64,000 nt of DNA from positions 38,130,001 through 38,194,000 of the forward strand of contig OZ024745.1 in the NCBI GenBank assembly GCA_964016885.1. Direction: 5' to 3'. The notes beneath the pieces were generated by a model. It did no database searches and was not told where the DNA came from. It saw nothing but the letters and a program-made list of their open reading frames with translations. Source of the DNA: Eledone cirrhosa (lineage: Eukaryota). The position numbers and the translations under genes are program-made. Positions 8,201-64,000 of the stretch are shown one piece after another. The number at the start of each line of letters is the position of its first letter. Within the stretch, counting starts at the first letter, position 1.

Positions 8201-8753
8201 AAAAATTCCTACTGTAGATCCGGTTCCGGGTTGATGATGCAAGTGACAGTTGGAATAGACACTTATTTACATAACCGTTATTAGTAATCTGGCTTATGAT
8301 GAAACAAGCGCTGGTTTGGGTATATATTAATATTGTTTGATATTTTATTGACTGATTCGATTATCGATTATTTCTTGTTACGTGTATTAATTTTTGTTGA
8401 TGACAATAATTAATTTGTGGGATATATCAATAATTTTGATTTCCTTATTAGATGATTGTTGATCATGGTCGATTGCTTGTTGATCATGTTAATCTTTGTT
8501 GGTAACTCTAATTATTTCGTTCAATACCTCCACCACACCACTTATTCTGTAGTGAAGTATACTGATTACTGGATTAATTCCAGTTAGCATTGCGCAAGAT
8601 GGTGTGTGGCGCGATGTTTCAATACTCCATGTTTACGAGAAACACCTCGTGGTAATGATGTTTCTTGAATTTATATATATACATTTTCTTCCCTTTTTTA
8701 TTTTCATTATAATTATTATTATGCCTATATAAGAAATAATTATTATTATTATT

Positions 8754-10670
8754 GTTCTTTGAGTCTCAGTCATTGATGTTATTTAACTGGAACGTTTGTT
8801 GAAATGAATATCAAGCCGCTATCTGCAGCCTCAGGTATTCAGGACGTATCGGAGGATTCTTGCTGTTCCCAGCAAGCATGCCATTTGAAGTGTTCCAAAA
8901 AGCGGTGTTGGACTAATCTTCTTTAACCATCCTTGGAAACTCTTCGAGATAGTACCTAGTGCGCCCCATGACAATCGGGACGACCTTGATTTCCTGGCAG
9001 TTTCAAATCCTTTTTAACTCCCACTTTAAGTCCTGGTATCGGTTAATTTTCTCCCCCGCTTTCCTTTTCTTGCACTCTCGTGTCAAATGGGCAGGCTACA
9101 TCTATAATCAGGCACGATCTTTTTTCTTTGTCCAAAACCACCAGCTCAGGCCTATTGTGTTCCAATTTCTTGTCCGTCTGTATCCTAAAATCGCATAGCA
9201 CCTCCACCTGATCGTTTTCTATCACCGACTCTGGCTTATGCTCATACCACTTCCCAGAATGTGGTAAATTGTTTACTTTGCATAGGTGCCAGTGGATCAC
9301 CCTGCCCATCACATCATGTCTCCAGCTCTTATATTGAGTCTGGGCTAGGTGTTTACACTCGGATACAATGTGAGCCACAGTTTCCTCTCTCTTTCCACAT
9401 ATCCTACTCAGTGGGCTAGTCTCCTCCTTGTAAATATGGTGTTTCAGCCACTTCGTTTTGAGGGCCTGCTCTTGCGCAGCCATTAGCATTCCTTCTGTAG
9501 CCTTTTTAAGGTCTCCTCTTTTCACCAGTTCCATGTCTGTGGATCTCTGAATTCAGTTTTCTCAAAGAAGGCACTATGAAGGGATTTTTCATGAAGGTTG
9601 CTCTTTCTCCTTGTTGTTATTTCCTCCTTGGACATCCCCTGATCTATTGTCCTCTCCTTCAGTACAATTCTGACATTGGCTCCCTACTATCGGTCACGTA
9701 TTTGTATAGGTTGTTTTTCCCCATCTGAACACAGTACTCTATGCTGATAAGACCTCTTCCACCTTCAGATATCCTTAAGTAGAGTCTATCGACATCACTC
9801 CTTTTGTGGAACATGTTGTAGATAGTCAATAGCTTCCTAGTCTTCTTATCCATTTCTTTTTGTTCAGCAACATTGCATCTCAGAATTCCCGCACTGTACC
9901 TAATAATAGACACAGCTCGGGAATTTACTGCACTTATGGCATTCCTACTGTTCAGATGTGACTTTAGTACGCTCCTTATTCTCCGAATGTATTCAGATCT
10001 TATCAATTCCTTCATTTTTTTGTTATTGATCTCATCAGCCTCCATAACACCTAAATATCTGTATCCCTCTTCAGCATCAATTTCCTTTATCATCTCACCT
10101 GTTGGTACCTGTATTCCGTTGCTGCTGCTCAATTTACCTCTCTTCATCGCAAGGACTCCACACTTACTAATACCAAATTGCATACATATATCATTGCTGA
10201 AAATACGGACAGTGTCAACATGCACATCCAACTCCCTCTCACTCTTCCCGAATAGCTTAAGATCGTCGATGAAGAGGAGGTGATTGATGGTAAGCACTCC
10301 CTTTCTCAACTTGTATCCGCTCTCACTTCTCGCAGTATAATGGTCAGGGGCATCAGAGCATGGAAAAACAACAGAGGGGACAAACTATCTCCCTAGAAGA
10401 TACCTCTCTTGATCCTCATGCCTCCCAAAGATTCTCCGCCCGATGTTAACTCTGTTTTCCAGGACTTCATACTTTTGCTCAACAACTGTCTGATGTTATC
10501 TGCCACCCTAAAGATCTCTAGGCTTTTGGTTATCCAAGAATGAGGTGCCATGTCGAATGCCTTTTTGTAGTCTATCCATCCCATGGCAAGACCAGTGTGT
10601 CTCCTCCTGAAATTCCTCATTACCATCTTATCAATAACTAACTGGTCCTTTGTACCACGGGACTTCTTTT
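8754..10670 (-). mobile_element. 5'-truncated R4/Dong-clade non-LTR retrotransposon (RT + CCHC + restriction-like endonuclease), pseudogenised
   Basis: SRGTKDQL, WIDYKKAFD, HLLFIDDLKL, YRYLG, GGRGL, AAQEQAL, RICGKREETVAHIVSEC, RHD, NRPELVV..IIDVACP; 3' end abuts (AAT)n. Confidence 0.9.
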
Positions 10671-10770
10671 TCTTCTTCTTCTTCTTCTTCTTCTTCTTCT
10701 TCTTCTTCTTCTTCTTCTTCTTCTTCTTCTTCTTCTTCTTCTTCTTCTTCTTCTTCTTCTTCTTCTTCTT

Positions 10771-10845
<75 letters not shown>
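10662..10845. repeat. Compound (TTC)n(ATT)n microsatellite
   Basis: (TTC)n to 10800, then (ATT)15 at 10801-10845. Confidence 0.98.
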
Positions 10846-11061
10846 GAATGCCATGGTTGACGGAGGCTCGGCTCTGTAAGGTATTGTAAATTTTAACCGC
10901 TATAACAATTGTAAATTGTTTAAAACTTTAACCAAATTGTAGACAAAAACACACTCCTCCTCGTGAGAGGGGTCTGTCTGCCCGTTATTTGGCCCTTCGG
11001 GGTTAAATAACCGCTGATTGGGGTTTTGTGCCCAATATTTATTTTAAACCCCCCCAAAAAC

Positions 11062-13195
11062 ATGGCTACAAAAAAGAATTTTCACAAGTCATTCCCACTC
11101 ATTCCTTCTTCTTCTTCCTCAATCATCACTACACCAGAGAGAAGATTGTCTCTCTCCTTCCCTTCTCTAAATGCGTCTCTCTCCCTCCCTTCTCTTTCGC
11201 AAGCGACGCCAGTAAAGAAAAATAGTTTCCAAAATCACGTGCAAAACGTGGAACATTTCTCCACGACGACGACAACGACGAAAAAGGTGTGCGGTAAATA
11301 CGAAAACCCATTTCATTCGTCTGACGTCATGAATAATAGCAGTAGCAGCCGTAATAACAGCAGCAGCAGCAACAGTGACAAGGAAAAAAACAGTAGCAGC
11401 CGCAACATCATCAGCAGCAGCATAAACAACAACAGCATTAGCAGCAACAGCAACAACAACAGCAACAACAACAACAACCACAGCAACAGCGGCGGCGGCA
11501 GTCGTAGTACCAGCAGCAACAACAAACGTAACAGCAGCTCTGACGACGACAACAACAACAACAACAAAGAAAAACCAATCTCGTTTGCAGGTATCGCAAA
11601 GAACCTGGAAACCATCCTTATAACAAATGAGGAATTACAGGATGCAAAGAAGATGGTGACGAAAACCGGACACCGAGCAATCTGTAAGGCAGCCGAAAGA
11701 TGTTTCGAAACCCAACAGCACTGTACGGTCACGTACTGTACAGTAAGCACAAACTCCCGTAGGGTTGAAAGGGCCACAGAGGCTCAAATACAAACAGCCT
11801 TAAGGTCTGTGTGGCAGCGGAAAACGCATATCACCCGAGGCAAGAAATATGCCACCGTGGACGTGCTTTTTGCCACACCCCAGGAGGCAAAGGCTCAATC
11901 CTTAGTGACCCTAAGGAGCGAGGAAATGGTGTTGGTGCCCTCCTACTGCGGACGAAAAATTGTGAGGGTCAAACTGACCCACGTCCCTCCCGGGATGGCC
12001 CCATCTTGGCTGGCCGCGTCTGTCCTCGTCGGAATCGAGGACAAAACAACTGTACTGCAAGTACATAAAAAAGTACGAGAAGATTGGGTCGGCACCTCCA
12101 TTGAGATATTAATCCAAACCAACCAGGAGTGCATCGAAGCTATCCCGGATATGATAGACTTCGATAACGGCACTCAACTGCTCATAACTGTTGGGGGCAA
12201 ACGCCCGAAATGCTTTCGCTGTGGATCGAAGACTCACCTCAGGGCCTTCTGCAATGAGAACACCCTGAGAAAGGAGAAAACCCCCCCTACTTCCGAAACC
12301 GGCTCCACTGCTACCAGCAACAGGACAGGCGGCAACCAGGAAGGATAGGTACGTGACACCCATACCCGCGCTACGGAAATCAAGAACAGTAGCAGCAGTG
12401 GAAGTATTAACAACAACAACAGCAATACCAACTGCAGTTGCATCAGAGACTCCACTGCAAACATCACCAACAACAACAAGTGAAAGAGTGGTGCTGGTAC
12501 CCGTCCCCGACCTCATAGAATCGGACATGGAGTGTGAGGTGGGAGAGGGATTGTAAAAGGTCGCAAGAAGGCACATACGCAGAAGCAGCGCATCGTCGCC
12601 TTCGAAAAGGGAGGAAAGAAACGAAAAAAAAGTAAAGGCTACTGCAAAAAGACTTACAGCAGCAACACCACCAACACCATCACCACCCACACAAGCACCA
12701 CCATCACCACCGGGGGAAACCCCACCGCCAACAACAACAACACCTTCAACACGACCACCACAAGCACCAACATCGCAAACACAACAAAACACACACACCC
12801 AGCAACAACGACAAGAAAATAGCAGAACCACACCCCACCCCCAGAAAAACAAATGCACAGCAAGAAATACACACAACAAGAAATTAATGACTTACATAAT
12901 TGAACACAGACATTTCACAGCACGACTACATAATACCAGCACCAATCAAAACACCAACGAACATAAGACTGGTAAAAATAGCACAGAAATAATACACAAA
13001 CTTTAAAACGAAATTCCCCAACGCAGTTGGTGATTTCAGAGACCTAGGAGGGACACTCAACCGGAGGGTATATTCGGATATACTCACAGAAGAGCCGACG
13101 ACAGCCGAAGGGGCGATTCAACGGTCCCTTCACCAGACGATCAAGTGAAAAGGGATGGTGAAACCATCCTGTCTCTGCGAGAAGAAGTAAGGTAA
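11062..13195 (+). pseudogene. Tx1 ORF1 (copy A), gag-like zinc-knuckle protein, disrupted
   Basis: ATG at 11062; CFRCGSKTHLRAFC; N/S- and P/T-rich low-complexity tracts; premature stops from 12348; ends LSLREEVR*. Confidence 0.8.
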
Positions 13196-13229
13196 GTGGT
13201 CTTTCCCATCTTTTCCACTCCATTTCAAC

Positions 13230-14778
13230 ATGACCTCACTCAGAATAGGCAGCATAAATGTGCGTGGTTTGGGGTCGTCATGGAAGCAGGGCCACCTGCT
13301 CAACGACCTCAGGTCACTAAACATAGATGTAGTGGCCATCGGCGAGACCAGAATCTCCGAAGCACGGGCCTTCGCACCGATCTTCGGCGGCTACGATGTG
13401 TACGCATCTCCCAGCCGTCCGGGAACGGAGGGAGGAGTTGCTGTGATTTTTTTGAGAGGTTTGGATCTCGCCATACGGGCCATCTTCCTGAACCCAGAAG
13501 GTAAGTTGGTGGTGCTGGACGTGACCAGCGGAGACGGGCAAGCTTTCAGGCTAGTGGCCGTCTATGCCCCGACAGGAGCAGGGCGGCCTGATTTCTTCCG
13601 GCGTCTGGAGACCTTTCTTGGAACGTCCCGCTCTTTAGTGTTAGTGGGCGACTGGAACAGGATCTTAGATGCACGCTGGGACTGTGTGGGATTAGCGGAT
13701 AGGAGAGAAAGCTATCCCTGAAAGGTCGAGCGGAGGAGGCGAACGCGTACATCGCGTCCGTCATCTACTACCACCTGACCGTCGTACCTTGTCCTAAACC
13801 CCGCCTGACTGCGCTGGAGCGTTTGCTCTTTCGCTTTTTGTGGAAGGGACGCGCTCCGATGGTAAGGCGATCCATCTTCTGTCAACACCCGTTACGTGGA
13901 GGGCTGGGCATACCGTGGCTGATGATACGCAGACACGTGCTCAGGCTACGACGTCTCCACCTCTTCCTCGACGGTGATCTGGTGTGGTCGCCGTTTGCTA
14001 GACACGTCTTTCCCCAGCTCGTCTCCTTGACGGAGCTGCAGTCCTGAGTCAAGCGAAGACCGAGAAGGAGCGCTTGGAGACTGGAATGTCTTCAGGCGCT
14101 CACAGCCCTCGACCGATCGGGCAATGTGAGCGGTGGAAATTCCACCTTGGCGTTCTATAGAGGATTAGAGGAGGGGAAGAGCGACGACATACTTGGAGAA
14201 AATCTAGGCGTCGACGAAAATCAACTAGCCAATCTCTTCGGAAGGACTTCCGGGCCGGGGTCTATGGACAACTTCCAGAAATCCCTTGCCGGGCAGTGCT
14301 ACCGAGGAGCTTTGCCAGTTCGGGATAAACTGTATAGGCATGGAGGTGCCGTCAGCGGGCATGTCCGAGATGCGCGCAGGGTGACGAAACCGTCCTGCAC
14401 GCACTCGTCCAGTGTCCGATCATTGCTGATTTGTGGGTTTATGTCGAACACCTGCTGTCACATGTAGGACGGATCCAGCTATCAGCTGTGTCCATCGTGA
14501 GGATTGCCACGCCCTCTTCCTTTAGCCGGGAAGGGCAGGCAGTTTTTATCTGCCTTGTGGCCATGGCGAAAGAGATAGTATGGTGGACACGTTTGAAAGG
14601 CCTGAAGACGAGCACTTACCTCTTCGGTGATGCCTTGATTAACCTTTTCAAATTTCATTTGAAAAGGAAAATCAGGGTAGAGAGGGAAGTGCTCTCTTCC
14701 CAGCATTTTGTTGAAATATGGGTGAGAGAAGCAAGTATGGCCCGATTGAATGGGCCTAATCTGAGTATGTGTCTGTAA
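13230..14778 (+). pseudogene. Tx1 ORF2 remnant (APE N-half joined to post-RT region and zinc finger)
   Basis: SINVRGL, ETR, VYAP, GDWN; at about 13705 the sequence jumps to the region matching 19539 of copy B. Confidence 0.85.
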
Positions 14779-14923
14779 ATTAAAGGTGGAAAACTGGGAG
14801 AGGGCACTTGCCCTGGTGGTCAGGGTCACTGTGGCCTTTTAATGGGCTTTCTCCACAAATGTCCCTTGTTCAATTATTACATCCTCTGTTTCTTGTCTTT
14901 TACACGCAGTTAATAAAGAAAGA

Positions 14924-14974
<51 letters not shown>

Positions 14975-15183
14975 GGCGACCTACGTAGTAAATCGTATCA
15001 TCGTGAGCTCCGCAAAGGTTTGTTATTTCCGTTTGTTAAAAATTGCCATTTATGGAAAAATTTTATTGTTAACCATATATAAGCGCACATACATTGTTTT
15101 CCGAAAAGGACACCCAAAAAGATTGGGGCCTTGTGCCTAAAATTTAAACTTTTATGATTATCAAAAAATTTCTTTGAAAAAAA

Positions 15184-17164
15184 ATGGCTAATTCATCTCT
15201 GCACCAAGCAGCTGAAAGCCTTTCTCACAAATTAACACCTCACACCGACACCACCATTGTAAATGTTACTACGTTTGCCAACACTACAAAAAATATAAGC
15301 AGTAGCAATATTTTAAATTTGTCTCAGGCAGACATTCATTTCCCACCATTACCAATGACTGCAGGTGTTAAAGCCTCCACCACCACCACCACCACCACCG
15401 CGACAACCACCACCCCCACCACCACCGCGACAACAGAAACAAAAGAAGAAAAAAATAAATTAACTCGTGATGTCGAAATGAAATCAAGCAAAATGGACTC
15501 TTCCCCACCAAAGACGACTGACGCCACCACCACCACAACTGAAACTAAAATTAATATTAACACAAATAACGATAGCAACAACAACAACAATGACATTATA
15601 AAAACCACCCTCAGTTTTGCCAGAGTAGCAAAACAGTTCGAAGCATTTACGGTAACTCAGGAGGATTTAGAAAATGCCAAACAAATGGTAAAGAAAGATG
15701 GGTACAGGGTCAGCCTCACCCCCCCACCTAATAAAATGGAGCATCGGCGCCTATGCACCGTGTCGTATCGAACAATAAATGTAAAATCGCGCCGAGTGGA
15801 ACGGGCATCCGAGTCACAAATCCAAAAAGCTTTGGGACATGTGTGGGCAAGAAAAACCCACATCAGACGTGGGCAGAAGTATGGAACCGTGGACGTGTTC
15901 TTTGAAACACCAGAGGAGGCTAGAGAACACTCCATGGCCCCATTAAGAAGTGACGACTTCATACTCGTCCCAAGCTATTGTGTCCAGGACTCGTAAAGAT
16001 CAGGGTGACCCACGTTCCACCGGCCATCGAAATTCCCTGGCTAATAGCGGCCGTCCTCGCCGGCATCGAAGCCAACACAAAAATAATAGCAATAGCAAAA
16101 GAAAAGCAGGAGAACTGGTCCGGATCTGGGATGGAGCTCCTGATCCAAGCGGACCAAAAAAGCATTGAGGAGATCCCAGAGGTAATAGACCTCACTGACG
16201 GCAGCCACCTCACGGTAATTGTCGAGGGAAGAAGACCTAGGTGTGTCGTTTGTGGTGAAGGAACCCACCTAAGGGCTTTCTGCCCTCAGGCTAAAAGGTT
16301 GAGGCCACCTCTCCTACCCACCCCAGTGACACAACCATCAACACCACCAGTAGCAGAGATGGCAGCAACAACTGTAGCAGCAACAACAGAAGCAACTATA
16401 ACAGCAACAACCCCAGCAACAGTAGCAAAACCAACACCACCACCACCACCACCACCCAACACTTCAGAACTAGCACCATCGCCTACACCATCCACCACGC
16501 CACAAGCAAAACTAACGCCTGTGGAGGATTTTCCACTCCTCGGCCTATCACAACTGGAGATAGATTGTGACGACGAGGAGTGGGAAACGATATCCGGAAA
16601 AGAAAAAAGAAACCAAAAAAGAAAAAATTCTCTTCCTTCCCCCTCCAAAAACAAAATACAGAGGGAAACAAATAAATTAAGAAACAAAAAAGTTAGGACA
16701 GATATGCCACCATCCACACCAGCATCACCAACCCCATCAACCCAAACACCAACACCATCACCATCATTAACCCCAACACCACCATCACCTACACCACAAA
16801 AGTCACCAAAATGCGAAACAGAAACAAACCCACAACAAACGCAAACAAAACAAAACAACCAAAACGATACACGCTACACAGCATTAAATTTGAACAACAA
16901 GCAATTATTACACTACATCCAACACAACACCAGCATCACAGAAAAAGACTACACAACAACCCCAAAATTCACACCACCTCCACACATACAAATCACTCGC
17001 ATCACACAGAAAACGTACATGACACTAAACAAAAATTCCCCAAAGACATCGGAGACTTCCGACAAGCACTCTCCAGGAGGATTTATAAGGACATCCTTCC
17101 TGAGGAGGCCACAAGCAGTGAAAAGGATGGAAAAACCGTCCTTCCCCTACGAGAAGTAAGGTAA
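15184..17164 (+). pseudogene. Tx1 ORF1 (copy B), zinc-knuckle protein with two frameshifts
   Basis: Frameshifts near 15985 and 17030; CVVCGEGTHLRAFC; C-terminus KFPKDIGDFR..RRIYKDILPEE..LPLREVR* is homologous to copy A. Confidence 0.85.
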
Positions 17165-17198
17165 GTGGTCTTTCCCATCTTTTCCACTCCTTTTCAAC

Positions 17199-20100
17199 AT
17201 GACCTCACTCAGAATAGGCAGCATAAATGCGCGTGGCTTGGGGTCGTCATGGAAGCAGGGCCACCTGCTCAACGACCTCAGGTCACTAAACATAGATGTA
17301 GTGGCCATCAGCGAGACCAGAATCTCCGAAGCACAGGCTTTCGCACCGATCTTCGGCGGCTACGATGTGTACGCATCTCCCAGCCGTCCGGGAACGGGGG
17401 GAGGAGTTGCTGTGCTTTTTCGGAGAGGTTTGGATCTTGCTATACGGGCCATCTTCCTGGACCCAGAAGGTAAGTTGGTGCTGCTGGACGTGACCAGCGG
17501 AGACGGGCAAGCTTTCAGGTTAGTGGCCGTCTATGCCCCGACAGGAGCAGGGCGGCCTGATTTCTTCCGGCGTCTGGAGACCTTTCTTGGAACGTCCCGC
17601 TCTTTAGTGTTAGTGGGCGACTGGAACGGGATCTTAGATGCACGCTGGGATTGTGTGGGATTAGTGGATAGGGAAGGAGGGTGCAAGAGTCTCACCAACC
17701 TGCTCAGACGTTTTGAACTGTCTGACAGGTACCGAATGGATTTCCCGAATGTACCAATGTGGACTTGGACAAATCGCATAGGGTCATCCAGATCATATCT
17801 AGATAGAGTATTTTGTAGGGAAATAGATAGGTCTAGCATAGGCTGTCCACAATTCAAGATAGTCAGCTACACGGACCACAAATTCGTGATCTGTGTGCTT
17901 GACTTAGATAGGCTTCATAGACGAGGACCCGGCTACTGGAAGCTAAACGCGTCCTTACCAGCGCGCAAGGCCTCCAGAGACCGGATAAGCGAACTAGTTA
18001 AGCGGGCGTTGATGGGGGCCATCGTCAACAACAAGTGGTGGTTTGCTCTGAAAAGAGCAATTAGAATAGAGTCCATTAGGTTTAGTAAGACTTTAGCAAT
18101 AGAGAAAAATAGAGCAGAGGGTGAATTAGTTAGAAAATTAGATGAGGCGCTTCGCAAAGGCATCGCGACCGACGTACTTGCGGCGAAATTGGCCCTTGAC
18201 TAATTCTTCAATGCAAAGCACGAAGGCTGCGTTGTCAGAGCTAGGGTGTGTGCTCTCAGACACGAGGGGACGAAAGCCGTTCAATGGGCCCGAGTGGCGG
18301 AGGCGCGTCGTGGCAACAAAGCCACGATCCGGTCTTTGGTGGACCACGACGGGCGCATGCTACTCGATCCCGGGCAAATGTGTGAAGCTTTTCAGCGACA
18401 CTTCGCTCAACTGTTCGGGGGCAGTGGCGGGCCGGATAGAGGGATAGACTTTAGTGTCTACCTCGACGGACTGCCGCGGCTTTCGGCCACTGAGGCGGAG
18501 TGTTGCGAAAAGCCGATAACAACCGCTGAAGTACGGGATGCCTGACTAGTTGCACAAGGGGTAAATCGCCTAGTTTGGATGGTCTACCCTATAAACTTTA
18601 CGTACAAATGCCAGACTTGTTCGGAGGCCTCTTGGCGGACGTCTACTGCAACTGGCAACAGAACGGGAGAATTCCCAGCTCTGTGAGCCGAGGAGCGGTG
18701 GCGCTGCTGAGAAATGATCCGAACAAGGGGGATAACATAGATAATTTTAGGCCCATAACTCTGCTAAACACAGAGTTCAAGATTTTGGCCAAGGTGCTAG
18801 CAAAGAGGTTGGCGCTTGTCGTTGGTGGTCTGGTGGGAGAGGCACAGACATGCGCCATTCCCGACAGATCCATTCACGACAACCTCCACCTCATGCGATA
18901 CATCGTAGAGAGGGTAGCTAGGGAACCTGGCACCGGTGGGTCTTTGATCAATTTAGATCAGTCGAAAGCCTTCGATAGGGTCGACCATCGTTACCTAGCG
19001 GCAGTCCTGAGGGCGGCTGGCTTTGGGCCCGTCTTCAGAGGCTGGATCGCTGCCATGCACAGCGACATCTGCTCTGTAGTGAGAGTGGACGGTCACCTTT
19101 CGGAACCGTTCAGCATCATGCGCTCGGTCCGCCAAGGATGTCCCCTCTCGTCCCTCTTGTATGTATTGACTCTCGAGCCATTACTGCACAAACTGGAGAC
19201 GTTGAGGGGGTCCCGCGCGAACTAGGATGCGGAAGATCCGTGTCAGCATATGCCGACGATGTCACCGTAGTGGTGTCGAACGCCAAACACATCGAGGCGA
19301 TCGGCACTACACTAAGAGAATACGAAGCGGTGACAGGAGCAATGATCAACCAGGAAAAGTCAGTGGGCCTGCAGCTCGGCACCTGGAGAGGCAGGTCCAT
19401 GCCGTCCAACAGCGTCGTCGGGCGCTGGACGGACGGACCGGTTATATTGCTAGGGCTCTGGTTCGGTCCAGACCTCCAGACGGACAAAAACTGGGACGAG
19501 ATGACGAGCAGGGTGACTTCTCTCACCCAGAAATGGCCCGAGAGGAAGCTATCCCTGAAAGGTCGAGCCGAGGTGGCGAATGCGTACATCGCATCCGTCA
19601 TCTACTACCGCCTGACCGTCGTACCTTGTCCTAAGCCCCGCCTGACTGCGCTGGAGCGTTTGCTCTTTCGCCTCTTGTGGAAGGGACGCGCTCCGATGGT
19701 CAGGCGGTCCATCTGCTGTCAACACCCGCTACGTGGAGGGCTGGGCATGCCGTGGCTGATGATGCGCAGACACGCGCTCAGGCTACGACATCTCCACCTC
19801 TTCCTCGACGGTGATCAGGTGTGGTCGCCGTTTGCTAGACACGTTTTTCCCCAGCTCGTCTCCTTCTTAGAGCTGCAGTCCTGGATCAAGCGAAGACCGA
19901 GAGGGAGCGCTTGGAGACTGGAATGTCTTCAGGCGCTCACAGCCCTCGACCAATCGGGCAATGTGATCGGTGGAAACTCCACCTTGGCGTTCTATAGGGG
20001 ATTAGTGGAGGGGAAGAGCGACGACGTACTTGGAGAAACTCTAGGCGTCGACGAAAATCAACTAGCCAATCTCTTCGGACTTTCGGGCCGGGGCCTATGG

Positions 20101-20363
20101 ACAACTTCCAGAAATCCCTGGCCTGGCAGTGCTACCGGGGAGCTTTGCCAGTTCGGGATAAACTCTACAGGCATGGAGGTGCCGTCAGTCGGGCATGTCC
20201 GAGATGCCCACAGGGCGACGAAACCGTCCTGCACGCACTCGTCCAGTGTCCGAGCATTACTGACTTGTGGGTTTATGTCGAACACCTGCTGTCACGTGTA
20301 GGACAAATCCAGCTATCAGCTGAGTCCATCGTGAGGATTTCCCCGCCCTCTTCCTTTAGCCGG
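17199..20363 (+). pseudogene. Tx1 ORF2: APE endonuclease + reverse transcriptase + CCHC finger, disrupted
   Basis: SINARGL, GDWN, SYLDRVF, TDH, GYWKLN, FRPITLLN, DQSKAFDRV, VRQGCPLS, AYADD, CPRC..ETVLHALVQC; stops at 18203 and 18545; frameshifts near 19205 and 20078. Confidence 0.93.
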
Positions 20364-20799: not shown

Positions 20800-22790
20800 T
20801 ACTTCTCTTAGGTCAGTGTTGTTTGTTTGGGTGTTGTTGTTATTCCATTCATTTTTTCTGTTTAGCCTAGGCCTTCTAAGTTCTATTTCGCTGGCCTCTC
20901 TGATTTGCCTATCTGCTGGGTAATTTCTATGTTTAGATATTATTCTAATTTCTATGTTGTCTATGTTACCGTCGTGTTGTTGTCTGGCATGTTCGTATAG
21001 TACTGAACCGTTTTTTCGTCCTTTTAGTTCCCCCCAGTGCTGGTCTATCCTTTCACCTATGCTACGAGCTGTCTCGCCTCTGTATGTTGTTGTCATGTTT
21101 CTGCAAGTACCCTCTGTACATCTCATGCTCTAGACTACGTTTCTAGTTTTACAGTTTATCCGGGGGTTTACTTTACATATGATACATTTGCTATTAGTAC
21201 AGTGGGTTTTCTTAAAAGGTTAGGTTTTGCTGATCAGGGATTTTATAGTGGTTCCTGGCTTTTCTACCACCTTAATCTTTAAGAGGGTCTTTCTAAGGGC
21301 CTTTCTACACTGGTTAGCTAATATCCCTCCAGGGGTAGCGTCCACACATATGACACTCTGGTATCTCTGGTTGTCGTTCCATGAGGTGGCTTTCCCTATC
21401 TTATGTCTAGTCCTATCTAAGCTATTCCATGATTTGCTCCTGTATAATGGGCAAATTCCTTTCATGTCCAGTTCTATGAGGGTCTTATACTTCTCCGTGG
21501 CTCCTTCGTATACTCTGATTCTGTCTCTTTGGTTGTAGCCAGAGAACTGTATGCGGTTGATGAAGTGTTGGATGTGTCTTTCCATTTCTGTTGGGTTGCA
21601 CATGCGGGACACGTTCTTCATCACTCGTACCAAGTCTGCGATCAGAATATTAAACATAGCACTACTGGACATTGCTGAGTTTTTGAGTAACAGGTATTTG
21701 GAGGCCATGGGTTTAGCATAGTGTGAGTGGAGAATTTGGGCTCTCTCGTCTATAGTATTAATCCAGAGTTCCGTGTCTAATACAGGTAGTCTATCGTTAG
21801 GATGTTTGGAAGGGAAGTCGATAGTTACAGTTATACTCTGGTGTATGGAATTAGCTATCTGCTGGATGCTTTCCATTGTGCTACGTTCTAAATCAAACTT
21901 GTTAGTGCTCTCTTGTGGGGATGTCCGTATTACTATATTGATGTCGTCTACGTAACGAGAGTACATGATGAGGTCTATGGATCTCTCATCAAGGAGATCC
22001 TTGAGTTTCCTTTCCCACCATACCATAAAAAGGTTGGCAACGTCACCAGCTATGCTGACGCCTATGGCTGCTCCCTCATTTTGGGTGTATTTCTTCTCGA
22101 TGAACTTGAATATGTGGCCCTTTAGAGTAGTTTTGATACTAGCCCCTATTGCATGTGCGACCATTTTTCTTACCTGATCATTGTTTTGTGGGGTCCGTAT
22201 AGCTTTGGTCCACCAAATCCACCTTCCCATGGGATTCTTTTTTGCCATTGAGGTTATGGCGGGGGGTCTACCTCTTACGGGTCTACTGGGGCAGAAATGT
22301 CGAAGGTCATGGCTGTCTAGGTAGTCATTGTCGTAGGTAAGTCTAAGTAGGAGGCCCAGTTCGTCTGTGTCGGCATCACAGAACCCCACCTCACTCTCAA
22401 TGATCATCTCCACACATTTTTCCACAGCAAAATCAATGTTAATGGATGGGTACAGTGATACCACATCCATACTGCCTGTTATGCAGTTGGATAGGTTTCT
22501 GTTTTTGTTGCACTCACTGATTCTGCTGAGGAGGTCCTCTGTACTGTCACATACATCTGGGGACATCTTGATTATGGGGCGTATAACCATTGAGAGGAAG
22601 TAGGAGATCCTGTAGTTGCTAGCTATATTTGCTCCGCATACAGGTCTTGTTGGTGTTCCTGTTGTCGGGTCGTCGACTGTCTTGTGGTCTTTGCGGAGCC
22701 GAAGCGAAAACCAACCAAACAGAGAGTGTGTTATGTTATTAGTTATGGAAATATTATTACACAAATATGACCCTCCCCAAGCATAACAAT
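20364..22790 (-). mobile_element. Penelope-like element (Naiad-like), RT + GIY-YIG, 5'-truncated with inverted terminal segment
   Basis: TRPV, SMDVVSLYPSI, GAAIG, YSRYVDD, LPVLD, HYAKPMAS; GIY-YIG YRGETARS..R..QH..RE; 22702-22790 is an inverted copy of about 20410-20500. Confidence 0.9.
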
Positions 22791-22959
22791 ATATATATAT
22801 ATATTCATATACACATATTCATATATATACATCTATATTTCTATAGGAATGGCAAAAATGAACATTTTATAGCGTTGGAACAATGTTATTGATTTAGATG
22901 GGGAATTAGTACGCAACAGTCTTATTTACCCCAACAACATGTTTCCGATATCCCTCTTC

Positions 22960-47076: not shown

Positions 47077-49632
47077 TAGACAATTATCAAAGTTGTGTTC
47101 AAATCATTTAATAGCTGACAATCGTTTCTTCCAAACTTTCGTTTGGAGTCGAGTCATCGGAGAATTATCAATGTTTGTACATGTAATTAACCTCCTATTC
47201 TACTGAACAATAATATAGATACATATATATTGATGTTGTGAACAACAGTTTCGTATTTACTGGGCGGTATGGATGTGACATATATTTTACGAGAATTGTA
47301 CCGCAACTAAAATTCAAATTAAAAGCACAGAGTGGAATACATGCAACAGATAATATAAGAGAATAGTCTAATATTTAAAGAGGCATTGAGAAAGGAGCTT
47401 TGAGAAAGAAAGAGTACATTAGCAATACATATGCAAGCGTGTAGAAAGTGCACATGCGTTAGTCATATATATGAGAAGGAAATAAGCAAAGTTATTATGC
47501 ATATATAGATAAATAAATACTATATTTTAAGCAAATATGTTAATGTATTACAATCTATGGTGGATGTAGTATGTTGATAGTGTTTGAATTTGTGTGTGTT
47601 GAGAAAACAAAGTTATTGCAGTCTCTTCCATTACATATGTTGAATTATATTTTAGTTAATGTTTATATTGAATGTTTTAAGTTAGTTAAAGCAATGGATT
47701 GTAAATTAGTCTTATTGTATTCTTATTCATGGACTATAGTTGTTCAACAGGTAGAATTTTCTAACGATTAATTTTCGGAAGTGAGTAAGGGGAGCTAATG
47801 CGTAAGGGGGGTTAACTAGCTAATTAAATTCAATTATTTAAATTATTTGCTCTAATACACATTATAATGTGATACAAGTGAATCTCTATTACATAATGCT
47901 ATATATTTATACTTGATTTTAAATACAGTGTATCTTACTATAATACATTAATGGTCTCATTAGATTGTTATCTATTCATTAATGGACAAGATATATGTTA
48001 TGGAAAATTGCATAGCTGTTTATATGTCCAAATAGATATATAATCCCTTATATACAATGCTATTAATTATAAATGTATATATACTTTATTATTATTATAT
48101 TGTGTTAAAAGTAGAACACTAATATATTTGTTATTAATTTAAATATTTAATTATATAATTATAAATGTATATACATTTTATTATTACATATTACATTAAA
48201 CGTCTCTACATATTAAATATCCATTAGTGTTTATAATATAATTAAGCTACAGTAGTTATATAAAAAGGTGGTAACTTTATGTTTAATTATAACCATTATT
48301 GCAGAGTATAAGGTTAGATATAAATAGGAGTTGTGTAAAGGAAAGAGCTGATCAAAGAGTGTGTAGCTGTGGGGCAGATAAGTTAGATGTGAAATGTTAA
48401 TAGTGGTGAAGAATTCAAATCTGACATTGTTATATACTAACAGCTAGGTTTAAAACGAGTGATGGTATCGGTGTTGGCACGACGAAAATGTCTCTGACTT
48501 TCTATTAAGTATAGTATGGGTCTCTAGAAGACAGAGATTACACAATTTATTCGGTGGTTTATACGATGAGGCCCTACCTACTACTTCCCATTGCAGTGCA
48601 AGTGGTCTATTCCTAGTTTTCAGAGAGTGTACGTAGCTAGATAAAAAAGTGGAGTTTGCTAGATTGTGTTTTTTGAAAGAGTGGAGGTACGAGTTGTATC
48701 TCGTCTTGAAGCTGTTCGAAGTAGAGCCGATATATGTTATAGAAGAGTTGTTTGCGTTGACGGTGCATGAGTAGACAATGTCTTTGGTTAAGCAATTATT
48801 ACCTAAGGGGCAAGTTCTATTAGTTCTACAGTTACATTTATTCTGGATGTTTGCTTGACGGATACTATGTTGTGAAGAATTCTGGTTGCTAGGGATAGCA
48901 CTAGGGTAATGATGCCTGTCATTCGTATTGTTATTGATTTCATTAGTGCTATTATAATTATTACTATTATTACTACTATGGATTACTGGTACTAAGTTTA
49001 CCTCCTGTTGTGTTTTAATTAGTTGGAAATAATTATTTATCTTCCTTTTATTGCTACTAGCTATATGGTATGCTTTGTTAGGTGTGGTGGAGTACGAGAG
49101 TTTAATGGTATTTTTATTGATAAGATTATGGTACTTGTGGCCGGATGGGAAGTTTTTTTCTAAGATTGAAAAGAAAGCCTTAATCAAGTTGGTAGAGACG
49201 TTTAGATTGAAAGGGGGATTGAAGAATGTATTAGTTCTTCTATTTTTGTTTTTAGTAATGTTTTTTGAGGTCATTTTACTCCTGTTTATATTATTATTAT
49301 CGTGGTGTTTAGTTTGGTGCGAGTTAAGTTTGGTATTACCCTTCGTCTTAGAGTTATAGTGGCTAGTGCTTTTATTATTTTTCCTCATGGCCATATTATG
49401 AGAAATAATGTTGTAACTATGTGATTTTATAGGTAGGAATTCGATCCCATTCATATGCCCTCATTTAGCTAAGACCTCATTATAGTATTGTGAATTATTG
49501 TTAAATATGATTTTATTATATGATAGATTAGTGACTATATTAGATATTCCTTTAGTAATAGAGTTTAATATGGATTTAGGGTGGTTAGAGTTGGTATTCA
49601 CATAAATTTGTTTTTCGTTAGGTTTATGAAAT
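47065..49632 (-). mobile_element. Penelope-like element 3' half (thumb, linker, GIY-YIG, long AT-rich UTR)
   Basis: FHKPNE..YVNTNSNHP; ORF 48450-49454 FFNPPF, IKLSYS, CNCR..CPLGNNC, YIGST..FKTRY, CNLCLLE, CQH; HHR-like remnant at about 47115-47160. Confidence 0.88.
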
Positions 49633-60357: not shown

Positions 60358-61520
60358 CATACACGCACGCGCGCGCACATACGTAGTCACTCATGTACAT
60401 ATATAAAAAGTATACACACATTAAGGCGTTCAGCCATATTGATACAGGGTGTAAAAAACTTGTGGATAAATAAGTACAAATATAAAATTGTAAGATAGGC
60501 TGCGCAAAAATAAAATAAAAATAAAAATAAAAATGAAAATTAAAAATATATCTGGTTTGAAAAACACAAAAGACATGTGTAATCAGTTAGTGGAGGAAAA
60601 GGGGAAGTAAAAGAAGGGGAAGTAAAAAATAGAAAGTGGATCGGAGAATAAAGGGGGGGGGGGTGAAGTAAAAATAAAAGTAAAAATAAATGAAATTATT
60701 GACAAGGATAAAAATGAAAGTAAGTTAGAAAGGGTAATTAAAAAGAGAATAATAAGAGTTTATGGAGGATAAGTATCTGAAAGTGTGTTAAGTTTATATG
60801 AGCTGGAAAGCAGGTGTGATTTCATGTGTGGGCAACTGGTGAAAATTTCCGTCTTTGTGTTCAGGCAGGTCTTTGGTGATTTTAGATTTTGCAATATCCA
60901 AAATTTTTCATTTATGCAGAGTGTGCATTTTCTTGTTCCCCTAGCATATTTTTTAGATTGGTTCAAAATTGACCAATCTAGTTTATATTGGATGCCTTGG
61001 TCTTTCAAATCCCAAATTTTGCTAGCCAGAGCTGTTGTAAATCTTTTTTCTGGATGTCGAAAGGATGCGACATGTGAGTAATAACGCGTTTTGAATCTGT
61101 CTTGCGTCATACCCACATATCGTTCACTGGTGGCTGGATAGTTGTTGCTGATGGTTGTCACTTTAGCCGCATATACAATGGCTTTGGTGTTGCATTTACC
61201 TTGTAATGGGCATTCACTTTTGATTCTACAGGAGCAAGTTTGATTTTCTCTAGGTGATATTTTGTTGATGATATAGGACTTAATAGGGGGACCGCAGGAA
61301 TAGTTAATTTTAACACAATTTCTGTTACAGATCTTATAGTATCTATGTGTTCTAGGGAAATGTTTATCTAGGAGTTCTAGGAATGTTTTGCCTACATTAG
61401 TTTTAACTGCTAGAGAGTAGGGGGGTGTGAACCAGATTATTTTTCTTTTCCTATTTTTATGTTTAATAGGGTTAGTGTAGTTAGGTATGTATTTAATCGG
61501 TTCGCTAAAGCCGCTATTTT
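59450..61520 (-). mobile_element. Penelope-like element 3' part (related to the 53.4-kb family)
   Basis: IIWFTPPYS, VKINYSC, CSCRIKSECPLQGKC, YVGMTQDRFKTRY, CTLC..EK, CPH; HHR-like CTGACGA..GAAA at about 59475-59530. Confidence 0.88.
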
Positions 61521-62114
61521 GGACAAAGCTTTAGTATACGGCCAAGCTAGCGTATATGCATAATCGGTTTGTAGCTTTAGCACTCGGATGAGGTAAGACC
61601 CCAGAGTAATAACATTACGTTCAGACAGCTTAGCAAATCAGATATAGCAGTCGGCAGTCCAACCGCATTACCAGAGCAACGAAAATACAGGACCCAGGAA
61701 AAGATTTGATACTGACCTGTACATAACGGTGAGACTGAGTGTAAAATATATAACTTACATCGTATATCCACAATATAGATCACAATATCACATCCAACAT
61801 CAGCGCTAATTTTCTGCAAATATATATATACACATATGTGTGTGTGTGTCCGAACATACATATACATTCACATATTTATAGGGATTTTTTTATACATACA
61901 CTAACGCACACATATATATGCATACATACATACATATATATACAAACAACTATGCTTCTAATATAATATTCTACACTACTAAATTGCATTGAGTTCTCTT
62001 TTCCTTTTCTCCTTCCATTGCAATTCACACCAGTTTGAATTCTTCATCTTTCTCTTACCTTCACACTCATCCACTCTTCCTTTCTTTCTGATTATTATTA
62101 TTATTATCATTATT

Positions 62115-64000
62115 GGCGACCTACGTAGTAAATTGTATCATCGTGAGCTCCGCAAAGGTTTGTTATTTTCAGTTGTTTAAAATTGCCATTTATGAAAATT
62201 TTTTATTGTTAACTGTATATAAGTGCACATACATTGATTTCTCAAAAGGACACTCAAAAATATTGGGGCCTTGAGCCCAAAATTTAAACTTTTTATAATT
62301 ATCAAACAAAATTTTTTCTTTGAAAAATGATGGATGACTCAAAGTCACTCCTTCCTCACAATCTAACACTTCACACCGACACCACCATTGTAAATATTTC
62401 TACGTTTGCCAACACTGGAAATGTAAGCAGTAGCAATATTTAAAATTTGTCTCAGGCAGACGTTCATTTCCCGCCATTACCAATGACTACAGGTGTTAAA
62501 ACCGCCACCCCCACCATCACCACAGCGACAACAGAAACAAAGAAAAACATAAATTAGCTCGTGATATCGAAATGAATTCAACCAAAATGAACTCTTACAC
62601 ACCGAACACCACTGACGCCACCACCACCACCACAACTGAAACTAAAATTAACAATAGCAAAAATAACGATAACAACAACAGCAACAATGAAATTAAGAAA
62701 ACTACGCTGAGTTTTGCCAGAGTAGCAAAAACGTACGAAGCGATCCAGGTAACTCAAGAGGAATTAGAAGAAGCCAAAGGAATGGTAAAGAAAGATGGGT
62801 ACAGGGTCAGCCTCCCCCCACACCTAATAAAATGGAGCAACGTCGCCTATGCACCGTGTCTTATCGGACAACTAACATAAAATCGCGCCGAGTGGAACGG
62901 GCATCCGAGTCCAAAATCCAAAAAGCTTTGGGACATGTGTGGGCAAAAAAAACCCACATCAGACGTGGGTAGAAATATGGAACCGTGGACCTGTTCTTTG
63001 AAACACCACAGGAGGCCAGAGAAAACTCCATGGCCCCATTAAAAGTGACGACTTCACACTCGTCCCAAGCTATTGTGGTCAGAGACTTGTGGAGATCAGG
63101 GTGACCCACGTTCCACCGGCCATCGAAATTCCCTGGCTAATGGCTGCCGTCCTCGCCGGCATCGAGGCCAATACCAAGATAAGTGAAATAGCGAGAGAAA
63201 AGCAGGAGACTGGTCCGGATCTGGGATGGAGCTCCTGATCCAAGCGGACCAAAAAAGCATTGAGGAGATCCCAGAGGTAATAGACCTCACTGACTGCAGC
63301 CACCTCACCGTAATCGTCGAGGGCAGAAGACCTAGGTGTGTCGTTTGTGGTGAAGGAACCCAGCTAAGGGCTTTCTTCCCTCAGGCTAAAAGGTTGAGGC
63401 CACCTCTCTTACCCACCCCAGTGACTCAACCATCAACACTACCAGCAGCAGAAATGGGAGCAACAACTGTATCAGCAACAACAGAAGCAACTGTAACAGC
63501 AACAACCCCAACAACAGCAGCAAAACCAACACCACCACCACCCAACGCGCGAAGAACTAGCACCAGCGCCTACACCATCCACCACGCCACAACCAAAACC
63601 AACGCCTGTGGAGGATTTTCCACTCCCCGGCTTATCGCAACTGGAGACAGATTGTGACGACGAGGAGTCGGAAACAGTATCAGGAAAAAAGAAAAAAAGA
63701 AACCAAAAAAGAAAAAAATTCTCTTCCTTCCCCCTCCAAAAACAAAGTACAGAGGGAAGCAAATAAATTTTCAAACAAAAAAGTTAGGACAGATATGCCA
63801 CCATCCACACCAGCATCACCAACCCCATCACCACAAACACCAACACCATCACCATCATTAACCCCAACACCACCATCACCAACACCACAAAAGTCACCAA
63901 AAAGCGTAATAGAATCAAACCCACAACAAACGCAAACAAAACAAAACAACCAAAACGATACACACTACACAGAATTAAATTTGAACAACAATCAATTATT
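62115..64000 (+). mobile_element. Tx1-clade LINE copy C (5' UTR + disrupted ORF1), running off the window
   Basis: Same GGCGACCTACGTAG start after (ATT)n; collinear and highly similar to copy B 14975-16910. Confidence 0.92.

What the first reader, a model, noticed from the sequence alone, without database searches (positions are those of the whole stretch)
10801..14975. Tx1 family that appears sequence-specific for (ATT)n microsatellites
Seen: all three 5' ends (10846, 14975, 62115) start with G immediately after ...ATTATT, in the same phase and orientation. The one visible 3' end is AATAAAGAAAGAA running into (TTA)n, without a poly(A) run. A and B form a head-to-tail tandem separated by (ATT)17. 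Established: Tx1-clade families such as Kibi and Koshi target TC and TTC microsatellites. Inference: this is an ATT-targeting Tx1 lineage, and I do not recall one being described.
Basis: partly seen in the sequence, partly recalled or inferred. Interest (0 to 1): 0.7.

Follow-up and report, generated by a model that had tools for sequence, protein, structure and literature searches.

The report
Octopus LINE inserting into ATT microsatellites
Three copies of a Tx1-type retrotransposon in this likely octopus DNA each start directly after a run of ATT repeats, so the family likely inserts specifically into (ATT)n microsatellites, a target not found in print for Tx1 elements in my searches, though only a handful of junctions could be read.

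Summary
Observation confirmed. Copies A (10846-14923), B (14975-20363) and C (62115-end) each begin with G right after ...ATTATT, in one phase and orientation. The one intact 3' end is AATAAA-GAAAGA-(ATT)17, with no poly(A). Only 4 of the window's 168 perfect microsatellites are AAT-class (124 are AT), and 3 of the 4 abut these copies. A and C are not preceded by another copy, so a 3' tail alone cannot explain them. Public reads gave one more junction: a 3' end, then ATT, then a 5'-truncated copy. The RT groups with a sister lineage that forms tandem arrays whose spacer is an 18-bp target duplication right after AATAAA. That supports reading (ATT)17 as target. New details: A and B/C have different 5' ends and ORF1s on a 93-95% identical ORF2, and A shares its array with an R4/Dong-like element on the opposite strand. 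No genome was available, so the family-wide flank tally is undone. Verdict: likely a new target variant of a known behaviour.

The parts
10663..10800 (+). (CTT)46 array, first half of a compound microsatellite
10799..10845 (+). (TTA/ATT)15.7 array, 5' flank of copy A; likely target
10846..14923 (+). Tx1-type LINE copy A: own 5' type, internally deleted, intact 3' end
11062..12348 (+). ORF1 of A (open part), with a CCHC knuckle; broken further on
   Evidence: no Pfam hit
13230..14778 (+). ORF2 remnant of A: APE start joined at 13703 to the C-terminal part (about 1.87 kb missing)
   Evidence: (PF03372)
14912..14923 (+). 3' terminus AATAAA + GAAAGA, no poly(A)
14924..14974 (+). (ATT)17 spacer between A and B; likely duplicated and slipped target
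   Evidence: analogy
14975..20363 (+). Copy B: second 5' type, ORF1 15184-17159 (frameshifted), ORF2 from 17199 (APE, RT; stops and frameshifts), 3' end lost next to another repeat
17199..17900 (+). APE endonuclease domain of B with N/E/Y/D-N/D/H catalytic motifs present
62091..62114 (+). (ATT)5 ATC (ATT)2 array, 5' flank of copy C; no Tx1 sequence in the 500 bp upstream
62115..64000 (+). Copy C, B-type 5' end and ORF1, 87.6% identical to B; runs off the window
8754..10669 (-). Neighbour: 5'-truncated RT + CCHC + restriction-like endonuclease LINE (R4/Dong-like) whose 5' end abuts (AAG)46(AAT)15
   Evidence: clade label from recalled motifs
8739..8753 (-). (AAT)5 at the 3' end of the R4/Dong-like element

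Best explanation
These are copies of an L1-group (Tx1-type) LINE, from a family that is high-copy in two other sequenced samples, and it likely targets (ATT)n microsatellites: all three 5' ends and the one intact 3' end abut ATT in one phase and orientation. Inferred mechanism: the APE endonuclease nicks the (AAT)n strand and the freed end primes reverse transcription on an RNA that ends just after AAUAAA without a templated poly(A), perhaps by pairing with read-through AUU. A staggered second nick then duplicates a short stretch of ATT (18 bp in the sister lineage), which later changes length by slippage. Both flanks remain target, so re-insertion gives head-to-tail tandems such as A-B. The first G may be the copied cap. 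Two 5'/ORF1 modules ride on one ORF2 and show the same flank, as expected if ORF2 sets the target.
For: (1) 3 of 3 5' ends and 1 of 1 3' end abut ATT; AAT-class arrays are 4 of 168 microsatellites in the window and 3 of the 4 touch these copies. (2) A is preceded by a compound array at the end of an unrelated element and C by non-Tx1 DNA, so their ATT is not a neighbour copy's tail. (3) A and B/C have different 5' ends yet the same flank. (4) Raw reads of a public run show a 3' end, 4 ATT units plus 5 more letters starting with ATT, then a copy starting at 14322 (about 600 bp from the 3' end): 124 reads, one start (tables 5 and 5c). (5) The RT is sister (100/100) to a lineage whose arrays have AATAAA, then a 12-20 nt spacer, then the next unit, with no poly(A) in 62 of 62 junctions found; in L115 the same 18-bp spacer (16 of 18 identical) flanks both outer ends of a two-unit array, which makes it a target duplication. 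(6) Microsatellite targeting is established for Tx1 elements (PMC4494074, PMC3812793, passages).
Against: Very few junctions: 3 5' and 1 3' in the window, plus one read stack with a single start, itself in a tandem where ATT could be a tail. No genome-wide tally. The read call listed only 24 of 4255 loose ends and none at either terminus, so it neither shows nor excludes non-ATT flanks. Depth falls in the last bin (X1 55,757 against 245,775 in the bin before; X4 311,497 against 764,533) and 8 contigs of X4 leave the reference at 14868, so many relatives have other 3' ends with unknown flanks (an edge effect may contribute). The sister lineage shows no ATT in 62 of 62 junctions and uses a different target in each array, so targets in this clade shift easily. 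No biochemical data.
Confidence: 0.7

Rival explanations
1. Looser or subfamily-limited preference: the family targets several (NTT)n or A/T-rich repeats (Koshi-like TTC as well as TTA), and ATT is only what these copies hit.
For: A sits in a compound (TTC)46(TTA)15 array. Relatives with other 3' ends are common in the runs. Sister arrays have at least six different spacers. Crocodilian Tx1 families are only 'preferentially' in (TTCC)n/(TTTC)n (PMC4494074).
Against: No junction in (AT)n although it is 31 times more frequent in the window; at A the element sits in the shorter TTA part, not the longer TTC part; all junctions share one phase.
Confidence: 0.14
2. ATT is made by the element: an encoded (ATT)n 3' tail (as the I element ends in TAA repeats), with re-insertion at its own tail or a repeat also carried at the 5' end.
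For: The spacer at A-B and the read-derived joint both follow a 3' end. Trinucleotide tails exist in other LINE clades (PMC3747384, passage).
Against: A and C have ATT upstream without any preceding copy. Two different 5' ends would each need an ATT head of variable length (15, 17, 8 units). In the sister lineage the sequence in this position is a target duplication.
Confidence: 0.12
3. Chance or passive accumulation in a microsatellite-rich genome.
For: The window is very rich in simple repeats; few loci.
Against: About 1e-3 even for one independent junction; random hits on microsatellites would fall in (AT)n (124 of 168), and would not share phase and strand.
Confidence: 0.03

Closest known systems
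Koshi (TTC)n, Kibi (TC)n and crocodilian Tx1 families in (TTCC)n/(TTTC)n
   Same: APE-type Tx1 LINEs inserted in microsatellites (PMC4494074, PMC3812793; passages).
   Different: Repeat unit here is ATT/TTA; host is likely an octopod rather than fish or crocodilians; phylogenetic link untested, and the nearest relatives with context do not target microsatellites.
Keno (U2 snRNA) and Mutsu (5S rRNA) Tx1 families
   Same: Loci of these types (L002, L006, L007 at U2; L009, L014 at 5S) came up as relatives and end in a poly(A) signal plus a short A-rich stretch running into the target. The Mutsu label is recalled.
   Different: Different targets; about 30% RT identity to P0001; separate clades in the tree.
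Dong (R4 clade), TAA-repeat specific
   Same: Same microsatellite as target (PMC3812793 lists TAA for Dong, DongAg and the snail DongBg).
   Different: Dong uses a restriction-like endonuclease (R4 clade; PMC4640811 plus recall); this element uses an APE and lies in the opposite orientation to the Dong-like neighbour, so shared targeting would be convergent.
Octopus L1-Tx1 families in repeat annotations
   Same: O. vulgaris has 80 L1-Tx1 families (56 Mb), 13 recently active with 421 near-full-length insertions (PMC13282606, Table 1 and supplement row); this family may be one of them.
   Different: That paper does not contain the word 'target'; no target preference was seen in the passages of it or of PMC8967140.

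Membership tests
L1 group LINE | ORF1 plus ORF2 with N-terminal APE, RT and C-terminal zinc region | tested here: met
   PF03372 and PF00078 on B; best PDB matches are L1 endonuclease and ORF2; P0001 (71-82% identical) carries zf-RVT
Tx1 clade | RT phylogeny with known Tx1 families | tested here: inconclusive
   Falls on the side of a 97/93 split that holds U2-inserted and 5S-inserted anchors, but the backbone is unresolved, the other side is not firmly identified as L1, and no curated Tx1 reference was available
Tx1 clade | ORF1 with CCHC knuckle, ORF2 about 1150 aa | tested here: met
   CX2CX4HX4C in A and B ORF1; full-length relatives 1145-1160 aa; feature recalled as typical of Tx1
Tx1 clade | Target preference in more than 20% of flanks (criterion of PMC4494074) | tested here: inconclusive
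   4 of 4 window junctions are ATT, but family-wide flanks were not obtainable
Kibi/Koshi | Target (TC)n or (TTC)n | tested here: not met
   Immediate flanks are ATT at all junctions
Kibi/Koshi | Same RT lineage | not testable with these tools
   No Kibi/Koshi sequence or TC/TTC-flanked Tx1 locus among those fetched
Dong/R4 (for copies A-C) | Single ORF with C-terminal restriction-like endonuclease | tested here: not met
   Two ORFs and an N-terminal APE
Dong/R4 (for the neighbour at 8754-10669) | RT, CCHC, PD..D endonuclease, no APE, TAA flanks | tested here: inconclusive
   Motifs read by eye; none of the 120 listed relatives has an APE Pfam hit, full-length ones are about 1060-1250 aa; no PDB match; clade not tested by tree

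The most novel reading that the evidence does not exclude
An abundant, strictly (ATT)n-specific Tx1 lineage in octopods that converged with Dong/R4 on the same microsatellite from the opposite strand, swaps 5'/ORF1 modules on a shared ORF2, and belongs to an undescribed invertebrate Tx1 clade whose endonucleases retarget rapidly (a different 12-20 bp target per tandem array in the sister lineage): a natural series for learning how APE domains read DNA.
Probability: 0.35. Interest if true: 0.6.

Novelty: new variant of a known kind. Interest (0 to 1): 0.42.

Why it matters
Target-specific LINEs are few and their APE domains are the natural models for how an endonuclease gains sequence specificity. 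An ATT-specific Tx1 would add a new motif, extend microsatellite targeting by Tx1 to molluscs, and give a case of two unrelated endonucleases (APE and restriction-like) sharing one microsatellite on opposite strands. In practice it would mean that ATT/AAT microsatellites in octopus genomes are insertion hot spots, which matters for marker design and repeat annotation. It does not change how LINEs are thought to work.

Tried and rejected
Whole genome: none held, so no flank tally. Earlier findings of the scan: four look-ups, all empty. Metagenome scans: APE query found nothing; the alignment query returned 80 loci, none octopod-like by E-value (best segments 23-42% identical), and stopped at 57 of 64 parts. 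Viral contigs: no relatives; 15 exact matches to a 19-nt 3'-end motif had no further similarity and are chance. Read: counts of records running over the stretch's ends (X4 36 of 28,789; X13 867 of 230,818; X1 26 of 26,311; X9 0 of 151) are not split by end or by flank, and the tool drops human-like reads, so they were not used as evidence. X9 holds next to none of the family. Idea that the sister-lineage spacer is an snRNA, SL RNA or tRNA: no Rfam or ARAGORN support. Atlas and PDB searches did not name the neighbour's endonuclease. Supplements of PMC4494074 were not readable and its Fig. 3, which lists Tx1 targets including repeat units, is not held; Kojima and Fujiwara 2004 and Repbase were not seen. 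An ATT-targeting Tx1 could be listed there.

Full report
Observation. The three 5' ends lie at 10846 (A), 14975 (B) and 62115 (C); each starts with G directly after ...ATTATT on the + strand. The upstream arrays are (CTT)46(TTA)15.7, (ATT)17 and (ATT)5ATC(ATT)2. A ends AATAAA-GAAAGA at 14923 and runs into (ATT)17 with no poly(A); B follows head to tail. B's own 3' end is missing: similarity stops at 20363, next to DNA repeated elsewhere in the window. C runs off the window.

Is it chance? With the three arrays masked, ATTATT ends at 1.0e-3 of positions (both strands) and three units at 9.4e-5. Of 168 perfect microsatellites of 15 nt or more, 124 are (AT)n and 4 are AAT-class; 3 of the 4 abut these copies and the fourth is the 3' flank of another LINE. 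Even if A defines the motif and A-B count as one locus, C alone gives about 1e-3.

What the element is. B has ORF1 (15184-17159, frameshifted, CCHC knuckle) and ORF2 from 17199 with an APE (PF03372, E 1e-14) and RT (PF00078, E 5e-20), broken by stops and frameshifts. The APE catalytic motifs are present and its best PDB matches are L1 endonucleases. A lacks about 1.87 kb of ORF2. A and B/C are two 5' types: their 5' UTR and ORF1 hardly align as DNA (138 bp at 70%; 52% aa over 124 aa) while ORF2 is 93-95% identical; B and C are 87.6% identical. The closest named proteins are from Octopus sinensis (a fragment in P0003) and Argonauta (P0006), so the host is likely an octopod. The family is abundant in two public runs (28,789 and 26,311 contigs laid at 85% or more); ORF2 bins are several times deeper than A's ORF1 bins, which fits several 5' types and truncation.

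Phylogeny. An RT tree (36 rows chosen from 80 dereplicated ones; LG+G4, no mixture model) puts B with P0001, P0126 and the Argonauta protein (100/100), sister to a clade at 42-45% identity (100/100) (the 80-row quick tree agrees). Loci inserted in U2 genes (Keno-like L002, L007) and at 5S genes (Mutsu-like L009, L013; label recalled) lie on the same side of a 97/93 split, but the backbone is open and the other side is not firmly identified. Tx1 is therefore the best label, not a proven placement. No Kibi or Koshi sequence was available.

Target or tail? No genome is held, so the decisive tally could not be run. Four lines still favour target. First, A and C have ATT upstream with no preceding copy: A follows a compound array at the truncated 5' end of another LINE, and the 500 bp before C match only simple repeats in the window. 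Second, two different 5' ends have the same flank. Third, raw reads of run X13 hold a joint from the stretch's end (3' end plus four ATT) through five more letters, ATTTT, to position 14322: a second copy's 3' end, ATT, then a 5'-truncated copy (124 reads, one start). This is one locus in a reduced-representation library and is itself a tandem. Fourth, the sister lineage shows the same layout with non-repetitive targets. Host-like contigs in one GTDB record (L081-L117, L122) consist of head-to-tail arrays; in the 62 distinct junctions that my motif search found, AATAAA is followed by a 12-20 nt array-specific spacer and the next unit, full-length or 5'-truncated, with no poly(A) and no ATT (L081-type junctions were not picked up by that search). 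In L115 an 18-bp spacer stands before the first unit, between units and after the last (16 of 18 identical at the outer ends): a target-site duplication. (ATT)17 occupies that position in A-B. The sister arrays also carry ORF1s of 38-55% identity on ORF2s of 92-99.7% identity, like A versus B/C.

Against. The junction count is small. One search showed only 24 of 4255 loose ends, none at either terminus, so it says nothing on non-ATT flanks. Depth drops in the last bin and 8 contigs diverge at 14868, so related subfamilies have other 3' ends whose flanks are unknown. The sister lineage has no ATT and a different target per array, so ATT may be limited to a subfamily.

Mechanism. Shown: structure, junctions, domain content. 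From established LINE biology: APE nick and target-primed reverse transcription. Inferred: the nick falls on the (AAT)n strand (from orientation); priming may use read-through AUU rather than poly(A); a staggered second nick duplicates ATT units; both flanks stay targets, giving tandems; the first G may copy the cap.

Neighbour. On the minus strand, 8754-10669 encodes a broken RT, a CCHC motif and a PD..D-like endonuclease motif; its relatives are single proteins without an APE hit. Its 3' end runs into (AAT)5 and its truncated 5' end abuts (AAG)46(AAT)15. I label it R4/Dong-like from recalled motifs. Dong elements target TAA repeats (PMC3812793). So one ancestral array seems to have been hit by both types, in opposite orientations.

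Literature. I saw search listings, passages of PMC4494074 (also its abstract and outline), PMC3812793, PMC4640811, PMC8967140, PMC13282606 (plus one supplement row) and PMC3747384. Tx1 microsatellite targets named there are TC, TTC, TTCC and TTTC; TAA is named for Dong. The octopus papers count L1-Tx1 families (80 in O. vulgaris, 13 recently active) and give no target in the passages seen. None of these nine searches showed an ATT-targeting Tx1, but Repbase, Kojima and Fujiwara 2004, and Fig. 3 and the supplements of PMC4494074 were not seen and could hold one.

Verdict. Real feature; likely (0.7) an ATT-microsatellite-targeting Tx1-type family; a new variant of a known kind; interest 0.42.

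Noticed in passing
L081-L117, L122 (GTDB record CAXXMW, titled 'uncultured Arenicella sp.' MAG; handle G001): Many contigs of this bacterial MAG are eukaryotic LINE arrays: head-to-tail Tx1-type units of 6.4-6.9 kb with mostly intact ORFs, 11 or more junctions in a row on contig_8, each array with its own 12-20 nt spacer that is a target duplication (18 bp in L115), no poly(A), and several ORF1 types on near-identical ORF2. Looks like contamination of the MAG and an undescribed array-forming lineage worth its own study.
   Followed up: partly
window 8739-10800 (-): 5'-truncated R4/Dong-like LINE flanked by (AAT)n, sharing its array with copy A in the opposite orientation; the (AAG)46 run starts exactly at its Lys codons and may have grown from them.
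   Followed up: partly
window 13186-13200 and 17155-17170: Both A and B have a consensus-like splice donor (AAG/GTAAGT) about 35 nt upstream of the ORF2 ATG; donor-like motifs also occur 35-50 nt into the 5' UTRs here and in the sister lineage.
   Followed up: no
window 21220-22818 (-), 34474-35199 (-), 48450-49460 (-), 60760-61530 (-): RT and GIY-YIG-like frames that look like Penelope-type elements (label from recalled motifs; weak RVT_1 hit for the first); B's 3' end is cut off next to this kind of repeat.
   Followed up: no
L007 781-833 and 5838 onward; L009 5520-5623; L014 3' end: Metagenome contigs hold clear U2-inserted (Keno-like) and 5S-inserted (Mutsu-like) Tx1 elements, useful as anchors.
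   Followed up: partly
P0003: An Octopus sinensis 'tectonic-3-like' gene model begins with about 60 residues of this family's APE domain, probably a mis-annotated or exonised fragment.
   Followed up: no
L118-L121: Four more GTDB MAG contigs (Cetobacterium, Fusobacteriaceae, Metamycoplasmataceae) are LINE ORF2 fragments, probably host contamination.
   Followed up: no
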